DNA of 64,000 nt from Escherichia phage vB_EcoM_Lutter. Below the pieces are notes generated by a model. The model saw only the letters and a program-made list of their open reading frames with translations. It made no database searches and had not been told where the DNA came from. The position numbers were made by a program, and so were the translations under genes. Shown here in pieces: positions 446 through 44,569 of the stretch (positions within the stretch are counted from its first letter, which is position 1; each line of letters begins with the position of its first letter). The stretch lies in the sequence record NC_054924.1; one strand, given 5' to 3'.

Positions 446-500
446 GTTTTTCCTCCATAGAGATTATACTCTAATAAATTAAAGCATAATCTCTTATAAA

Positions 501-13627: not shown

Positions 13628-14097
13628 TTTAAACTCTTTCTAAGCTGCTTCTTAAATGAAGCTATTAACTGTGTTTTGGTGTCAGATTCATTATATTCAA
13701 ATCCTCTTTGAAGCATCTCGGCCATCATTTCCTCTTTTCCTAAACGAGAAAATTCCTTTGATTTATCTCCAACAAAGTTAGGGTGAATATTATTTTGGGT
13801 GTAATCGGATTTTAAATAAGTAAGTAAATTTTCTAACCATTCAAGATAATCAACACCTTGTCCCTTTAAGCCAGAACGATTAAATTTATGTTTCATTTGA
13901 CCTTCTGCGGCATTGCAGAGATTACAAAGCAATCCACGTACCTTTCCTGCTTTTGGTCCATTTAATTCATGGTCATGGTCGAGGTGATTAGCTTGAACAT
14001 CAGGATTTAGTTCTCGTTGGCAAATTAAGCATTTACCGTTTTGTGCATCATAAAATTTCTGTTTTTCTTCTTTATATAATTTGCCAGTCAATAACAT
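13624..14097 (-). CDS. 49: endonuclease VII (Holliday junction resolvase)
   Basis: 157 aa; zinc motif CLICQ...HLDHDHE...CNLCN; T4 gp49 length. Confidence 0.9.
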   Translation of the reverse strand: MLLTGKLYKEEKQKFYDAQNGKCLICQRELNPDVQANHLDHDHELNGPKAGKVRGLLCNLCNAAEGQMKHKFNRSGLKGQGVDYLEWLENLLTYLKSDYTQNNIHPNFVGDKSKEFSRLGKEEMMAEMLQRGFEYNESDTKTQLIASFKKQLRKSLK

Positions 14098-26996: not shown

Positions 26997-27022
26997 ATAT
27001 ACCCCTTTAGTTAGATAAACCT

Positions 27023-27030
27023 ATTTATAA
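27023..27030 (-). promoter_or_regulatory. candidate T4 late promoter (TATAAATA)
   Basis: Exact TATAAATA on minus strand about 30 nt upstream of the rI.1/rI start. Confidence 0.4.
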
Positions 27031-27038
27031 CTTTTGCA

Positions 27039-27620
27039 CTAACCGAGCTTTTTAGTTAATTCATTCCAATGTTTTCTACACAAAGAAACATAAATTTCAT
27101 CACCAATACAGATTTGATTACCTTCTTTAACTGGTGTTCCATCTTCCATTAATCGAGCTGTCATAATAGCTTTTTTACCACAATGACAAACTGCCTTTAG
27201 TTCAATAAGTTTATCTGCAATCGCCAAAAGTTCTTTAGAACCTTCAAATAATTTTCCAGCGAAATCAGTCCTTAGTCCATAAGCCATAACAGGAACATTA
27301 TATGTATCAACAATTCGGCTTAATTGATGCACTTGTTCAGTTTTTAAAAACTGAGCTTCATCTACAAATACACAATGAATATCTTTTTGTGCTTCAGCCC
27401 ATTTATAGAACTCAAAAATATCCATATCATCCGTAATAATATTCGCTTCCTGTTTAATTCCAATGCGAGAAACGACTTCACAGACAGAATCGCGAGTATC
27501 AATAGCAGGCTTAAGAACTAATACACTCATTCCACGTTCTTTATAATTATGCGCAGCAGTCAAAAGAGAAGCAGATTTTCCAGCATTCATTGCTGCATAA
27601 GTAAAAATTAAACTCGCCAT
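27039..27620 (-). CDS. tk: thymidine kinase
   Basis: 193 aa; P-loop NAGKSASL, C-terminal CxxC...C zinc motif. Confidence 0.9.
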   Translation of the reverse strand: MASLIFTYAAMNAGKSASLLTAAHNYKERGMSVLVLKPAIDTRDSVCEVVSRIGIKQEANIITDDMDIFEFYKWAEAQKDIHCVFVDEAQFLKTEQVHQLSRIVDTYNVPVMAYGLRTDFAGKLFEGSKELLAIADKLIELKAVCHCGKKAIMTARLMEDGTPVKEGNQICIGDEIYVSLCRKHWNELTKKLG

Positions 27621-27629
27621 ATCACCTTC

Positions 27630-27815
27630 TTAAAGCGTATTCACATAAGCTATTAATTCATTTTCTTTCTTATCAAACCGATCAGCAAATTCTTCCTGCT
27701 GTTCAGGAGATAGCGGGCCGTATTCATCATAAAAGGTGTTTGCTTCTGTATGCTCATCTAGAAGTTCATGGATAAGCTCAAACAATTTATCTTTTTGTTC
27801 TTTGCTTAGGCTCAC
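27630..27815 (-). CDS. hypothetical acidic protein (61 aa)
   Basis: ORF. Confidence 0.45.
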   Translation of the reverse strand: MSLSKEQKDKLFELIHELLDEHTEANTFYDEYGPLSPEQQEEFADRFDKKENELIAYVNTL

Positions 27816-27984
27816 AGTATGTCAATCCCCAAAAGTTTTAAAATGACTCGTTTCTGATTCATAACTGCTACGATTGAATGACCGTTGGGGTCTTTTTGAC
27901 CTGATCCAATTATAAATCCTTTTTGCGCAGAAAGTTTAATCAAAACATCAAGTTCACGTAATAATTGATATTTTAAATCATCAT

Positions 27985-28212
27985 TCATTTTGGTTTACCT
28001 TCTTTAACGAAATCAGGATAAGGATAAAATCCTGAATAAAATCCTTCACCTTTATGATTGATGCATCCTTTATTAGAACAATAGCACCAATAATCGAAAT
28101 CACAAGTCATTTCATCGTTGCATAAAGCAAAAACAACCGGCCACTTACACTTTTCGCAGTGGGCATTTTTAAGAATACTAGTTTGGCTCATAACCATGTA
28201 ACCTTTAAGCAA
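27985..28212 (-). CDS. cysteine-rich small protein (75 aa)
   Basis: Multiple Cys/His pairs (CEKCKW...CNDEMTCDFDYWCYC...CINH). Confidence 0.45.
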   Translation of the reverse strand: MLKGYMVMSQTSILKNAHCEKCKWPVVFALCNDEMTCDFDYWCYCSNKGCINHKGEGFYSGFYPYPDFVKEGKPK

Positions 28213-28415
28213 TATTCTTCTACATGTTGTTTACGACCTTTCTTATCAATAAAGGTATATTCAACGAATGTTCCAATGTAGTCTTTATCTACATCATGTG
28301 GACTATTAATTGGACATTTAGTACGGCAAATGCGTTCCCATTGACGAATAATTACTGCCTTATTCTTTGGGTCATACGGATGTGGATAATGTATATTCAT
28401 AATAACGGTTCCCAA
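28188..28415 (-). CDS. hypothetical protein (75 aa)
   Basis: ORF. Confidence 0.45.
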   Translation of the reverse strand: MGTVIMNIHYPHPYDPKNKAVIIRQWERICRTKCPINSPHDVDKDYIGTFVEYTFIDKKGRKQHVEEYCLKVTWL

Positions 28416-28864
28416 TCAACAATCACAATTTCTAATTTAGAGGAATATGTATCTAAAATCCCCTCAATAATATCCCAGTTCCCTTTACCTATGCCTGCAC
28501 CAATCCTAGGCATATAGATTGTAGGTTTAATCAGTTTATTTTCACCAAACTCATTTAATTCTAACATACAATTCATTAAAGCGGAATACTCAAAATTTGG
28601 CCCCGGTTGAAATTGAGTATAAAGATTGAAGCAGTAAGCTTTATGAGTCCTAAAGTATTTTTCATAGACTGAGTAAGAACCGAGTTTAGTTACATCGCCC
28701 CATTCTGTCTGTAATTTATCAGCTTCCAAAATTTTAGGGAAAGCTTTAGTTAATTGACCTGCGACTCCAGCTTTCATCGTGTGAAAACAGTTACACCCAT
28801 GCGCAATAATATTACCTTCAAGAAAGAGGGCGACAATATCGCCCTTGATATATTTTACAATCAT
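28397..28864 (-). CDS. macro-domain-like protein
   Basis: 155 aa; HGCNCFHTMKAGVAGQL and PRIGAGIGKG resemble macro-domain ADP-ribose-binding loops. Confidence 0.5.
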   Translation of the reverse strand: MIVKYIKGDIVALFLEGNIIAHGCNCFHTMKAGVAGQLTKAFPKILEADKLQTEWGDVTKLGSYSVYEKYFRTHKAYCFNLYTQFQPGPNFEYSALMNCMLELNEFGENKLIKPTIYMPRIGAGIGKGNWDIIEGILDTYSSKLEIVIVDWEPLL

Positions 28865-29208
28865 CTAGTACTCAATCCTCGATTATAAGAATCTACCAAA
28901 CGGTCAACCATTGAATGACAAGCGGCTTTATCTTTCTCCTCCGCAACTGAACATTCTAAGGTATTCCACTTTTTAGCATATCGTTTTAACAATGTATCAT
29001 TTTTGTATCTGCTTGATTTATCTCTTTCTCCGTCTTTATATGCATATATTAATTTCTGCGCAAATTCAGCTTGGCATGCTTTATTTTTCCCGCAATAATC
29101 CGCTGCAGTACGGTTTACATACTCTCTAATTTCAGTATATGATGTATCTGCTAACGCAGAAGCAGAAAATGAAATTAATCCTATACATAAAACCAAAATT
29201 TTAGTCAT
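28861..29208 (-). CDS. small secreted protein (positional candidate for vs)
   Basis: 115 aa; N-terminal signal peptide MTKILVLCIGLISFSASALA. Confidence 0.45.
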   Translation of the reverse strand: MTKILVLCIGLISFSASALADTSYTEIREYVNRTAADYCGKNKACQAEFAQKLIYAYKDGERDKSSRYKNDTLLKRYAKKWNTLECSVAEEKDKAACHSMVDRLVDSYNRGLSTR

Positions 29209-29746
29209 TTACTATTTCCAAAAGTTTATTATTTTTAAGGTAATTAGCCTTTTCTAGGACTTCAGAAGCATATTTAGAACCAGCTTTAACATTCCATCCC
29301 GAATTATAAGAGGATATTGCTTTTCTTATATCGCCCTTATGTATATTTAACCAATAAGAAAGTTCAATGTACGCCCAGGAAGCTGAATTGGATCGTTTAT
29401 TCAACATTCTTTTTATTTCAGCATCGGTCATATTATAACCAAGTTCCTTAACTCTCGCTCGCATAGTAGGCAAATAATTTTGGAACATTCCGTAGGCGTG
29501 ATGCTTTGGTTTAGATTTTAAATTAACTCCGCCAGAGCTTTCTTGCCATAAAATGGCTGCCATTATATGACCTAATCCGCTCTTGTGGATATTTTTGTGT
29601 GTTTTATATTTTCCATCCTTAGAAAATTGTTCCCCGAATTGATACGCGTAACGCATGTTATCGAGTTGGACATTACTGAAAGTATGCTCGGAGCTATGCG
29701 CCATCATTGAAATGGCCAATAGACCAGCGAGTAGTGCTTTTCTCAT
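29201..29746 (-). CDS. periplasmic lytic transglycosylase-like protein (SLT domain)
   Basis: 181 aa; signal peptide; motifs AILWQESSG, AYGMFQ, SSYNSGWN. Confidence 0.65.
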   Translation of the reverse strand: MRKALLAGLLAISMMAHSSEHTFSNVQLDNMRYAYQFGEQFSKDGKYKTHKNIHKSGLGHIMAAILWQESSGGVNLKSKPKHHAYGMFQNYLPTMRARVKELGYNMTDAEIKRMLNKRSNSASWAYIELSYWLNIHKGDIRKAISSYNSGWNVKAGSKYASEVLEKANYLKNNKLLEIVND

Positions 29747-29753
29747 GCTTACC

Positions 29754-30215
29754 TCATTGAGTTTTAATTACTGCTTTAGAAGCCTTTCCTGGTAAACGAC
29801 GACTGTTGATAATTGCCATCCTGCATTGAAGTGACGGGTTTTTGAACTTCTCATTAGGCTTACAAACTGTAAATCCAAGCCAAAGATTTCCATCTGTGAT
29901 TTCTAAACGTCCAGGACGATATTCAACCCCATCAATAAAATCCTCATCAATGTCAGGACGCGGAGGCATACTCAGGAATTCATTAACTTCTAAAACATGG
30001 TCTTTTATTTTATGGAATAATTCAAAAACATATGTCTCATCAATCTCCCGTTGAATTGCACGATCAAGAAGATGCTGAGAATATTTTAGATGAAACGATG
30101 AGACCCCTGCTGCTTTTGATGCCTCACGAATCTCATTGTTAATTTGACGAAACTCCGACTCAAAGTGACGACGAAGCTTATTTCGACGGATAAAAACTTC
30201 TGTATTGATAGTCAT
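29754..30215 (-). CDS. regB: site-specific endoribonuclease RegB
   Basis: 153 aa; MTINTEVFIRRNKLRR...; size and position of T4 RegB. Confidence 0.7.
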   Translation of the reverse strand: MTINTEVFIRRNKLRRHFESEFRQINNEIREASKAAGVSSFHLKYSQHLLDRAIQREIDETYVFELFHKIKDHVLEVNEFLSMPPRPDIDEDFIDGVEYRPGRLEITDGNLWLGFTVCKPNEKFKNPSLQCRMAIINSRRLPGKASKAVIKTQ

Positions 30216-30242
30216 GTTATTCTCCTCTTAACTGATAGAAAA

Positions 30243-30271
30243 ATTATACCACAGTCAAGAGGAAAAGTAAA
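30243..30271 (-). promoter_or_regulatory. early promoter upstream of regB
   Basis: TTTACT-17-TGG-TATAAT. Confidence 0.65.
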
Positions 30272-30274
30272 CAG

Positions 30275-30553
30275 TTATTCTTTAAATCTAATCAATTTAT
30301 TCATAGACTTTGAAACTTCTGCACGAACCTCATGTAGATTTTTGAGCTGTTCAAGACGCTGCTCATAGTAAGCAATTTCATCTTCTTCGAGACAGTCCTG
30401 TGAATCTTCTTTAAGATAACGTGCATAGTCCTGGAAAGCTTTACGGACTACTTCCTGGAAGTCATCAAGACTTTGAATTTTCTTAGGAGCAACAGATACA
30501 CGACGAGGGGCAGTATAATACTCATAACCAAACCCTGCGCTTAATTGAGCCAT
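30275..30553 (-). CDS. hypothetical protein; start trimmed to MAQLSAG
   Basis: TAATG stop/start overlap with upstream gene. Confidence 0.45.
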
Positions 30554-44520: not shown

Positions 44521-44569
44521 ATGTTTCTCCTCAAATTTAGTTAAGATTATAACACATGAAACTGAAGCA

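What the first reader, a model, noticed from the sequence alone, without database searches (positions are those of the whole stretch)
28397..28864. Early-expressed macro-domain-like protein
The 155-aa protein has HGCNCFHTMKAGVAGQL and PRIGAGIGKG, resembling the two ADP-ribose-binding loops of macro domains. T-even phages ADP-ribosylate host proteins, and hosts use ADP-ribosylation in defence. A phage macro domain could erase or read such marks.
Basis: inference. Interest (0 to 1): 0.5.

Follow-up and report, generated by a model that had tools for sequence, protein, structure and literature searches.

The report
T4 tk.4/adfM macrodomain: already known

Summary
The 155-aa ORF at 28397..28864 (minus strand) and both quoted motifs are real. 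It is a true macrodomain. Pfam Macro scores above its gathering cut-off. A family profile hits solved macrodomains at E 2e-19 to 2e-12. The AlphaFold model (pLDDT 96) matches TARG1, Poa1p, DarG, BT1257 and SCO6735.

The window is a Tequatrovirus. The ORF is gene tk.4, 150/155 identical to T4 Tk.4, sitting between vs and tk.3. Its A1pp/macro domain has been noted since 2006 and is in RefSeq.

A 2025 preprint found tk.4 to be the single T4 gene needed against DarTG2 and named it adfM. Removal of ADP-ribose from DNA was proposed there, not shown.

My added detail concerns the catalytic lysine of DarG (K80) and TARG1 (K84). In this family it is an invariant glutamine (Q84), as in Streptomyces SCO6735. 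That enzyme cleaves thymidine-linked ADP-ribose from DNA and is dead as Q85A. So this is a stand-alone, Gln-type DNA de-ADP-ribosylase rather than a DarG copy.

The window allele also carries a recombinant patch over loop 1 (G31K, S32A relative to T4).

Verdict: interpretation supported, already known, low interest.

The parts
28397..28864 (-). tk.4 / adfM coding sequence, 155 aa, a single macrodomain
   Evidence: ORF. It is 150/155 identical to T4 Tk.4, NP_049723. Pfam Macro scores above cut-off. PHROG 335 matches at E 2.5e-65. AF2 pLDDT is 96.1 with macrodomain fold hits.
28751..28801 (-). Loop 1 motif HGCNCFHTMKAGVAGQL (residues 22-38). It holds H22, N25 and invariant G33/A35, plus the allele-specific K31-A32.
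   Evidence: Aligns to DarG N22..G30 and SCO6735 H24/N27/G35. Column composition: H22 88/93, N25 92/93, G33 93/93, position 31 G in 79/93 and K in 4/93.
28613..28615 (-). Codon of Q84, invariant in the family, at the position of the catalytic Lys of DarG (K80) and TARG1 (K84) and of Gln85 of SCO6735
   Evidence: Q84 is Q in 93/93 sequences. Alignments: TARG1, DarG, BT1257, SCO6735. Q85A/E kills SCO6735 activity (PMC9411070).
28481..28510 (-). Loop 2 (phosphate-binding loop) motif PRIGAGIGKG, residues 119-128
   Evidence: P119 is invariant; I121, G122, G124 and G128 are at least 90% conserved. G124 aligns with SCO6735 G128 and DarG G119, whose Glu mutants lose activity.
28748..28826 (-). Mosaic (recombinant) patch relative to T4, covering codons 13-39 (strand beta-2 and loop 1)
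   Evidence: 20 of the 24 nucleotide differences from T4 lie here, against 4 in the other 389 nt. No 79-nt window reached 20 in 200,000 permutations; the largest was 15. Across the gene, 15 codons differ synonymously and 5 non-synonymously; all 5 non-synonymous changes are in the patch. The best match in 50,697 phage records is 93.8%.
28861..28864 (-). ATGA overlap: vs stop codon and tk.4 start codon
   Evidence: Sequence read directly. It implies co-transcription and possible translational coupling.
28397..28400 (-). ATGA overlap: tk.4 stop codon and tk.3 start codon
   Evidence: Sequence read directly. The tk.3 protein is identical to that of T4.
30243..30271 (-). Candidate sigma-70-type promoter (TTTACT-17-TATAAT with an upstream TG) just before regB. 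It is the nearest plausible source of transcription through regB, vs.1, vs and tk.4.
   Evidence: Consensus scan only. Such sites are not enriched in the region, so this is a weak inference.

Best explanation
The ORF is the orthologue of bacteriophage T4 gene tk.4, recently renamed adfM (anti-DarT factor, macrodomain). It encodes a stand-alone 155-aa macrodomain of the ALC1/TARG1-like class.

Shown in T4, by genetics: the gene lets the phage grow on hosts that carry the DarTG2 toxin-antitoxin defence. The toxin DarT2 ADP-ribosylates thymidines in single-stranded DNA and blocks replication.

Inferred mechanism: the protein binds the ADP-ribose moiety with its two glycine-rich loops (residues 22-38 and 119-128) and hydrolyses the thymidine-ribose bond, restoring unmodified DNA.

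Inferred from alignment: its active site is not the DarG/TARG1 lysine type. It has an invariant glutamine (Q84) together with H22, N25 and G124, the same set as in Streptomyces SCO6735. In that enzyme Gln85 is essential, and catalysis is proposed to go through an activated water.

The gene lacks DarG's C-terminal DarT-binding domain. It is co-transcribed with its neighbours in the regB-vs.1-vs-tk.4-tk.3 cluster.
For: Identity:
- The window is 99.6% identical over 3.3 kb to Tequatrovirus genomes with the same tk / tk.4 / vs / vs.1 / regB order.
- The protein is 150/155 identical to T4 Tk.4.

Fold:
- Pfam Macro above cut-off.
- Profile hits to solved macrodomains at 2e-19 to 2e-12.
- AF2 pLDDT 96.1.
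- Foldseek hits: TARG1 E 3.8e-10, Poa1p, DarG, BT1257, SCO6735.
- DarG models are the only hits in NCBIfam and PADLOC, covering the macrodomain part only.

Function:
- In T4, tk.4 was the single significant hit under DarTG2, and a clean knockout sensitises T4 to DarTG2.

Active site:
- Q84 is invariant in 93 homologues down to 33% identity.
- It aligns with DarG K80 (hhalign 98.3%), TARG1 K84 and SCO6735 Q85 (hhalign 98.7%, E 2e-16).
- SCO6735 cleaves dT-ADP-ribose on ssDNA, protects against DarT, and is inactive as Q85A or Q85E. Its N27S and G128E mutants are impaired (PMC9411070; confirmed with synthetic substrates in PMC12879935).
- The equivalents N25 and G124 are conserved at 90% or more.

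Precedent:
- An unrelated-lineage phage macrodomain, PhiKZ gp104, removes DarT2 ADP-ribose from DNA in vitro (PMC13309987).
Against: - No biochemical assay of any Tk.4-type protein was found. The preprint says only that enzymatic removal 'seems likely'.
- The catalytic lysine, whose mutation inactivates DarG, is absent.
- SCO6735's DNA-contacting lysines K34 and K89 are not conserved; they map to A32 and G88.
- The window allele has Lys at position 31, where 79 of 93 relatives, T4 included, have Gly. Function of this particular allele is therefore untested.
- The genetic evidence is a preprint and concerns T4, not this phage.
Confidence: 0.78

Rival explanations
1. Tk.4 neutralises DarT2 without catalysis. 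It could bind and block the toxin, or bind and shield ADP-ribosylated DNA, acting as a 'reader' or inhibitor rather than an eraser.
For: The DarG/TARG1 catalytic lysine is missing. Catalytically dead SCO6735 Q85A still inhibited DarT in vitro, more strongly than dead DarG or TARG1 (PMC9411070). Other phage anti-DarT factors (AdfA, AdfB) are thought to act by direct interaction (PMC11481870). The ALC1 macrodomain, which also carries Gln at this position in the printed alignment, is known as a binder; that last point is from my own knowledge.
Against: The residues needed for SCO6735 hydrolysis (N27, Q85, G128) are invariant or nearly so across the whole Tk.4 family, which spans many unrelated phage groups and hosts. 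That pattern fits an enzyme acting on a universal chemical mark better than a binder of one toxin. There is no DarT-binding C-terminal domain: the protein is 155 aa, while the DarG profiles are 329-338 positions.
Confidence: 0.1
2. Tk.4 mainly processes small ADP-ribose derivatives, acting as an ADP-ribose-1''-phosphate phosphatase or an O-acetyl-ADP-ribose deacetylase, as the database labels 'phosphatase', 'A1pp' and 'Poa1p-like' imply. Its role would lie in nucleotide/NAD or RNA-repair by-product metabolism, or in destroying ADP-ribose-derived immune signals.
For: RefSeq and PHROG label it 'phosphatase'. Yeast Poa1p is among the best sequence and fold hits and shares the H-x-C-N-C loop-1 pattern. 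The gene lies in a nucleotide-metabolism neighbourhood (tk), and distant relatives sit next to ribose-phosphate pyrophosphokinase. Iyer et al. argue that many phage Macro domains may prefer soluble ADP-ribose derivatives (PMC9503650).
Against: The labels are transferred from the domain name, not from assays. The only phenotype on record is DarTG2-specific. Poa1p has Ser, not Gln, at position 84. The Gln-type relative that has been assayed works on DNA and protein substrates. The two activities are not mutually exclusive.
Confidence: 0.07
3. Tk.4 reverses or tunes the phage's own ADP-ribosylation and RNAylation of host proteins by Alt, ModA and ModB, or reverses ADP-ribosylation of RNA by other defences such as CmdTAC.
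For: T-even phages do encode three ADP-ribosyltransferases (established knowledge). SCO6735 also removes Glu/Asp-linked protein ADP-ribose.
Against: Alt/Mod enzymes modify arginine, a linkage that TARG1-class macrodomains are not known to cleave (established knowledge; the arginine-specific macrodomain MavL is a different type, listed). CmdTAC defends robustly against wild-type T4, which carries tk.4 (PMC11618068), so Tk.4 does not neutralise it. No phenotype supports this rival.
Confidence: 0.04

Closest known systems
Bacteriophage T4 Tk.4 = AdfM (NP_049723; bioRxiv 10.1101/2025.11.20.689424)
   Same: Orthologue: 150/155 identical, the same length, the same position between vs and tk.3 with the same 4-base overlaps, and the same invariant residues.
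   Different: Five substitutions, all in residues 15-32 (L15A, N18K, I19N, K31G, A32S, written window to T4). They come from a recombinant patch. K31 replaces the usual loop-1 glycine.
Streptomyces coelicolor SCO6735 (PDB 5e3b) and Bacteroides BT1257 (PDB 2fg1/2afc): Gln-type ALC1-like macrodomains
   Same: Stand-alone macrodomains of about 150-180 aa. They have Gln at the DarG-K80 position and conserved His, Asn and loop-2 Gly (H24/N27/Q85/G128 map to H22/N25/Q84/G124). BT1257 is the best PDB sequence hit. SCO6735 removes thymidine-linked ADP-ribose from ssDNA and protects against DarT.
   Different: Only about 20% identity. SCO6735's K34 and K89 and its longer mobile loop after the Gln are not conserved. 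SCO6735 is a bacterial DNA-damage-inducible protein, not a phage counter-defence.
DarG (DarG2) antitoxin macrodomain (PDB 5m31, 5m3e, 5m3i)
   Same: The same fold and the same two loops. It is the functional counterpart, since both neutralise DarT2. DarG is the only family hit in NCBIfam and PADLOC.
   Different: DarG has catalytic Lys80 where Tk.4 has Gln84. DarG also carries a C-terminal DarT-binding domain and is encoded next to darT. Tk.4's score is 25 bits against the equivalog cut-off of 250.
PhiKZ gp104, also named AdfM (Cell Rep 2026, PMC13309987)
   Same: A phage-encoded stand-alone macrodomain that counters DarTG2. Biochemical removal of DarT2 ADP-ribose from DNA has been shown for it.
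   Different: Only remotely related: BLASTP E 0.012, hhalign 96.5%. It is DarG-like and Lys-type (FPTK, K78) and is imported into the phage nucleus. The two 'AdfM' proteins are therefore separate recruitments of different macrodomain subtypes.
Human TARG1/OARD1 and yeast Poa1p
   Same: The best structural matches (TM up to 0.81). TARG1 also cleaves thymidine-linked ADP-ribose on DNA.
   Different: The TARG1 catalytic dyad K84/D125 corresponds to Q84/G126 here. Poa1p has Ser at position 84.

Membership tests
Macro domain (Pfam PF01661) | Sequence score at or above Pfam's gathering threshold | tested here: met
   25 bits against a cut-off of 22, E 2e-5, covering profile positions 2-113 of 118. 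Many homologues carry precomputed PF01661 hits.
Macro domain (Pfam PF01661) | Three-layer alpha/beta/alpha macro fold | tested here: met
   AF2 model with pLDDT 96.1 and pTM 0.91. All 50 listed Foldseek PDB hits are macrodomains or designs built on a macrodomain scaffold, with TM 0.54-0.81.
Macro domain (Pfam PF01661) | Two glycine-rich ADP-ribose-binding loops (loop 1 with a conserved Asn and GxG; loop 2 as the phosphate-binding loop) | tested here: met
   N25, G33, G122, G124 and G128 are conserved at 90% or more and align to the DarG and SCO6735 loops. Actual ADP-ribose binding is not testable here.
T4 Tk.4 / AdfM orthologous group | High identity to T4 Tk.4 in the syntenic position between vs and tk.3 | tested here: met
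   97% identity, the same gene order, and PHROG 335 at E 2.5e-65.
T4 Tk.4 / AdfM orthologous group | Protects the phage against DarTG2 | not testable with these tools
   Shown for T4 by transposon screen and clean knockout. Not tested for this allele, which has K31-A32 in loop 1.
DarG antitoxin (NCBIfam NF048014 equivalog; PADLOC DarG) | Full-length match above the curated cut-off, including the C-terminal DarT-binding domain | tested here: not met
   25.2 bits against a cut-off of 250. Only profile positions 2-146 of 338 are matched. PADLOC DarG matches positions 3-145 of 329 at 28 bits. The protein ends at residue 155.
DarG antitoxin (NCBIfam NF048014 equivalog; PADLOC DarG) | Catalytic lysine (K80) in the FPTK motif | tested here: not met
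   It aligns to the invariant Gln84 in NLYTQ. K80A inactivates DarG.
DarG antitoxin (NCBIfam NF048014 equivalog; PADLOC DarG) | Encoded in an operon with darT | tested here: not met
   The neighbours are vs and tk.3, with no ART-like gene adjacent.
TARG1-type glycohydrolase | Catalytic Lys84/Asp125 dyad | tested here: not met
   K84 corresponds to Q84 and D125 to G126 (Ala or Gly across the family).
Gln-type ALC1-like macrodomain hydrolases (SCO6735/BT1257 type) | Gln at the position equivalent to SCO6735 Gln85, with conserved His24, Asn27 and Gly128 equivalents | tested here: met
   Q84 in 93/93, H22 in 88/93, N25 in 92/93, G124 in 92/93. hhalign to SCO6735 gives 98.7%, E 2e-16.
Gln-type ALC1-like macrodomain hydrolases (SCO6735/BT1257 type) | DNA-contacting lysines K34 and K89 of SCO6735 | tested here: not met
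   They align to A32 (Ser in T4) and G88. This allele has K31 and K127 nearby, but their role is unknown.
Gln-type ALC1-like macrodomain hydrolases (SCO6735/BT1257 type) | Hydrolysis of thymidine-linked ADP-ribose on ssDNA | not testable with these tools
   Shown for SCO6735. No assay of a Tk.4-type protein was found in the literature searched.
Poa1p-like ADP-ribose-1''-phosphate phosphatase | Sequence and fold similarity to Poa1p | tested here: inconclusive
   Poa1p is a good hit (E 1.5e-5 by sequence; Foldseek E 5e-9), and Poa1p's H23 aligns with Tk.4 H22. However, Poa1p has Ser at Tk.4 position 84, and phosphatase activity cannot be tested here.

The most novel reading that the evidence does not exclude
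T4-type AdfM may be a mechanistically distinct anti-DarT enzyme: Gln-type, water-activated, and recruited independently of the Lys-type PhiKZ AdfM and of DarG itself. Its loop 1 may be a recombination-shuffled specificity determinant. On that reading, the window's K31-A32 allele and T4's G31-S32 allele would differ in which ADP-ribosylated nucleic-acid substrates or DarT variants they counter.
Probability: 0.12. Interest if true: 0.45.

Novelty: already known. Interest (0 to 1): 0.15.

Why it matters
It matters little as a discovery. The gene, its macro domain and its anti-DarTG2 role in T4 are already on record.

It has modest value as a refinement, for two reasons:
- The literature treats T4 AdfM as a DarG homologue and gives it the same name as PhiKZ gp104. 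The alignments here show it lacks the DarG catalytic lysine and belongs with the SCO6735 Gln-type enzymes. That predicts which point mutants (Q84, N25, G124) should abolish counter-defence.
- Natural alleles differ precisely in the substrate-binding loop, which gives a ready-made pair for specificity experiments.

Tried and rejected
- Antisense ORFs over the locus (28224..28517 + and 28754..28888 +) have no Pfam match above threshold. The only hit, RnlA_toxin_N, scores 16 bits against a cut-off of 24 and is taken as chance.
- Rfam found no RNA family in 27000-30500 on either strand.
- The GC-rich hairpin at 28827..28845, flagged as terminator-like on both strands, was tested. The local fold z-score is -1.3, with 23 of 200 shuffles folding as well. 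It lies inside the coding sequence and is not a credible terminator.
- A promoter specific to tk.4 was sought and not found. Sigma-70-like sites are not enriched (20 found, 23.5 expected). MotA-box-like sites are enriched in the window as a whole (18 found, 5 expected), but none lies between about 26 and 41 kb. 'Early-expressed' therefore stays an assumption.
- 'It is a phage copy of DarG' was rejected on three defining features: score, catalytic lysine and C-terminal domain.
- 'It is the same protein family as PhiKZ AdfM' was rejected. The two are only remote homologues with different catalytic residues.
It was rerun without that row.
- I did not use the exhaustive representative-protein search or the metagenome/genome scans. 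The identification was already unambiguous.

Full report
**Observation.** The window holds one long ORF at 28397..28864 on the minus strand. It has an ATG start and encodes 155 aa (sequence). ORFs on the opposite strand over the same stretch have no credible family match. No Rfam family is present in 27000-30500.

**Is it a macrodomain?** Yes, on every test.
- Pfam Macro (PF01661) matches residues 22-132 at 25 bits, above the gathering cut-off of 22.
- The single sequence finds the solved macrodomains BT1257, Poa1p, SCO6735, TARG1 and DarG in the PDB.
- I collected 169 homologues and aligned 93 of them (A2). The profile hits BT1257 at 2.4e-19, TARG1 at 2.5e-16, SCO6735 at 4.4e-15, M. tuberculosis DarG at 2.3e-14 and Thermus DarG at 2.2e-12. 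Viral nsp3 macrodomains follow at about 1e-3.
- AlphaFold2 with this alignment gives mean pLDDT 96.1 and pTM 0.91.
- Foldseek against the PDB returns TARG1 (E 3.8e-10, TM 0.74/0.81), Poa1p, DarG, BT1257 and SCO6735, then the coronavirus and alphavirus macrodomains.
They align with DarG N22-G30 and 114-123, and with SCO6735 H24-G35 and G126-G132. The DarG paper describes the second loop as closing on ADP-ribose.

**What gene is it?** The surrounding 3.3 kb is 99.6% identical to Tequatrovirus genomes such as vB_Eco_BGP and slur03. In those records the ORF is labelled 'macro domain protein', 'phosphatase', 'Poa1p-like' or tk.4. In T4 RefSeq the syntenic gene is tk.4 (NP_049723, 'phosphatase; contains A1pp phosphatase motif'), lying between vs and tk.3. 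The window protein is 150/155 identical to it. The neighbours are confirmed as thymidine kinase, Vs, Vs.1 and RegB. The start codon overlaps the vs stop, and the stop overlaps the tk.3 start, each as ATGA.

The A1pp (macro) domain of tk.4 orthologues was reported in 2006 (PMC1524935). Relatives occur in 2,822 of 50,697 phage records, spread over Escherichia, Klebsiella, Salmonella, Pseudomonas, Vibrio, Acinetobacter and Aeromonas phages. This agrees with the survey finding Macro domains in 41% of myoviruses (PMC9503650).

**What does it do?** A November 2025 preprint (HIDEN-SEQ, 10.1101/2025.11.20.689424) screened a T4 transposon library on a host expressing DarTG2. It found tk.4 as the single significant hit, and a clean knockout became sensitive to DarTG2. 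The authors named the gene adfM and noted structural similarity to the M. tuberculosis DarG macrodomain. They wrote that enzymatic removal of ADP-ribose from DNA 'seems likely'. So the phenotype is shown, in T4. The chemistry is inferred.

Independently, a 2026 Cell Reports paper gave the name AdfM to PhiKZ gp104 and showed that it removes DarT2-placed ADP-ribose from an oligonucleotide (PMC13309987).

**How does it most likely work? The active site.** DarG's Lys80 is equivalent to TARG1's nucleophile Lys84, and K80A inactivates DarG (PMC5179494). I recovered the real DarG, TARG1 and SCO6735 sequences from PDB alignments and checked their numbering.
- In the Tk.4 family the aligned residue is Gln84, invariant in 93 of 93 sequences down to 33% identity.
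- NLYTQ aligns with DarG NFPTK (hhalign 98.3%), TARG1 YLITK, PhiKZ gp104 MFPTK and SCO6735 NMIGQ (hhalign 98.7%, E 2e-16).
- TARG1's Asp125 corresponds to Gly126.

SCO6735 is the informative precedent. It has neither TARG1 catalytic residue, yet it cleaves thymidine-linked ADP-ribose from ssDNA efficiently and protects cells from DarT. It loses all activity as Q85A or Q85E, and N27S and G128E mutants are impaired. The authors propose a water-activated mechanism (PMC9411070; activity confirmed on synthetic substrates in PMC12879935).

Tk.4 conserves the equivalents H22, N25, Q84 and G124. It does not conserve SCO6735's DNA-contacting K34 and K89, which map to A32 and G88. I therefore read Tk.4 as a stand-alone Gln-type DNA de-ADP-ribosylase. 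It works like DarG's macrodomain, but it is not a DarG:
- it scores 25 bits against the 250-bit equivalog cut-off;
- it matches only the N-terminal 145 positions of the PADLOC DarG model;
- it lacks the catalytic lysine and the C-terminal DarT-binding domain;
- it is not next to a darT gene.

It is also only a remote homologue of the PhiKZ protein that shares its name (BLASTP E 0.012).

**The allele in this window.** All five amino-acid differences from T4 lie in residues 15-32. At the DNA level, 20 of 24 differences fall in gene nucleotides 39-117 (window 28748..28826), against 4 in the other 389 nt. No 79-nt window reached 20 differences in 200,000 permutations. Across the gene, 15 codons differ synonymously and 5 non-synonymously, with all 5 non-synonymous changes inside the patch. 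This looks like a recombination tract from a diverged allele, not point selection.

The patch matches no phage record better than 93.8%. Residues 1-30 equal those of a 59%-identical allele (P0005). K31-A32 is shared with a common Tequatrovirus cluster (P0001, 122 member sequences). Position 31 is Gly in 79 of 93 relatives and Lys in 4. It aligns with DarG G28 and lies next to the position of DarG K29 and SCO6735 K34. Whether this changes activity is unknown. A T4 laboratory subline also differs at residue 36 in the same loop (PMC8573959).

**'Early-expressed'.** This could not be confirmed.
- Sigma-70-like sites are not enriched (20 found, 23.5 expected).
- The best candidate upstream on the correct strand is TTTACT-17-TATAAT, with an extended TG, at 30271..30243, just before regB.
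- MotA-box-like patterns are enriched in the window (18 found, 5 expected), but none lies near the gene.
- The terminator-like hairpin inside codons 7-13 is not significant, with z = -1.3.
- Early or middle transcription of this cluster in T4 is textbook knowledge, but I did not verify it here.

**Rivals.**
- A non-catalytic inhibitor or reader is possible. Dead SCO6735 still inhibits DarT, and other anti-DarT factors act by binding. Against this, the invariant hydrolytic residues across very diverse phages argue for an enzyme.
- A small-molecule phosphatase or deacetylase role rests on labels transferred from the domain name, not on assays.
- Reversal of the phage's own Alt/Mod marks has no support. 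CmdTAC still defends against wild-type T4, so Tk.4 does not neutralise that system.

**Verdict.** The object is already annotated and already published, so interest is low. The added value is twofold. T4-type AdfM is Gln-type (SCO6735-like), not DarG-like. And this phage carries a recombinant loop-1 allele.

Noticed in passing
window 27630..28197 (minus strand): The interval between tk and tk.3 differs from T4. The window has a tk.2-like ORF (27630..27815) and no tk.1. It also has two small ORFs absent from T4: 27812..27988 (58 aa, PHROG 3452) and 27985..28197 (70 aa, cysteine-rich with CxxC, PHROG 2306). Both are of unknown function.
   Followed up: partly
window 28748..28826: A sharply bounded mosaic patch inside tk.4 holds 20 of the 24 nucleotide differences from T4. 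The best database match is only 93.8%. It covers the substrate-binding loop 1 and replaces the usual Gly31 with Lys.
   Followed up: yes
window 28827..28845: A perfect 8-bp GC-rich hairpin (AGGGCGA-TAT-TGTCGCCCT region) lies inside tk.4 codons 7-13, immediately 5' of the mosaic patch, and is identical in T4. It is flagged as terminator-like on both strands, but the local fold is not significant, with z = -1.3.
   Followed up: partly
whole window, mostly minus strand (e.g. 461..486, 13690..13715, 44544..44569): The T4 middle-promoter (MotA box) pattern TGCTTNA-N11-13-TANNNT occurs 18 times against 5.0 expected; no shuffle of 100 reached 18. Fourteen of the matches are on the minus strand, and none lies between about 26 and 41 kb.
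   Followed up: no
literature; T4 Tk.4 versus PhiKZ gp104: The name AdfM is used for two different proteins: T4 Tk.4 (Gln-type, preprint 2025) and PhiKZ gp104 (Lys-type, Cell Rep 2026). They are only remote homologues, with BLASTP E 0.012.
   Followed up: yes
phage records H48/H49 (Vibrio phages Skimmer and Thalassa): Distant Tk.4 relatives (about 33% identity) lie next to a ribose-phosphate pyrophosphokinase gene. This hints at a link to NAD/nucleotide-salvage modules in other phages.
   Followed up: no
T4 tk.4 codon 36 (literature): T4 laboratory sublines differ by Ser36Gly in Tk.4, again in the loop-1 region (PMC8573959).
   Followed up: no
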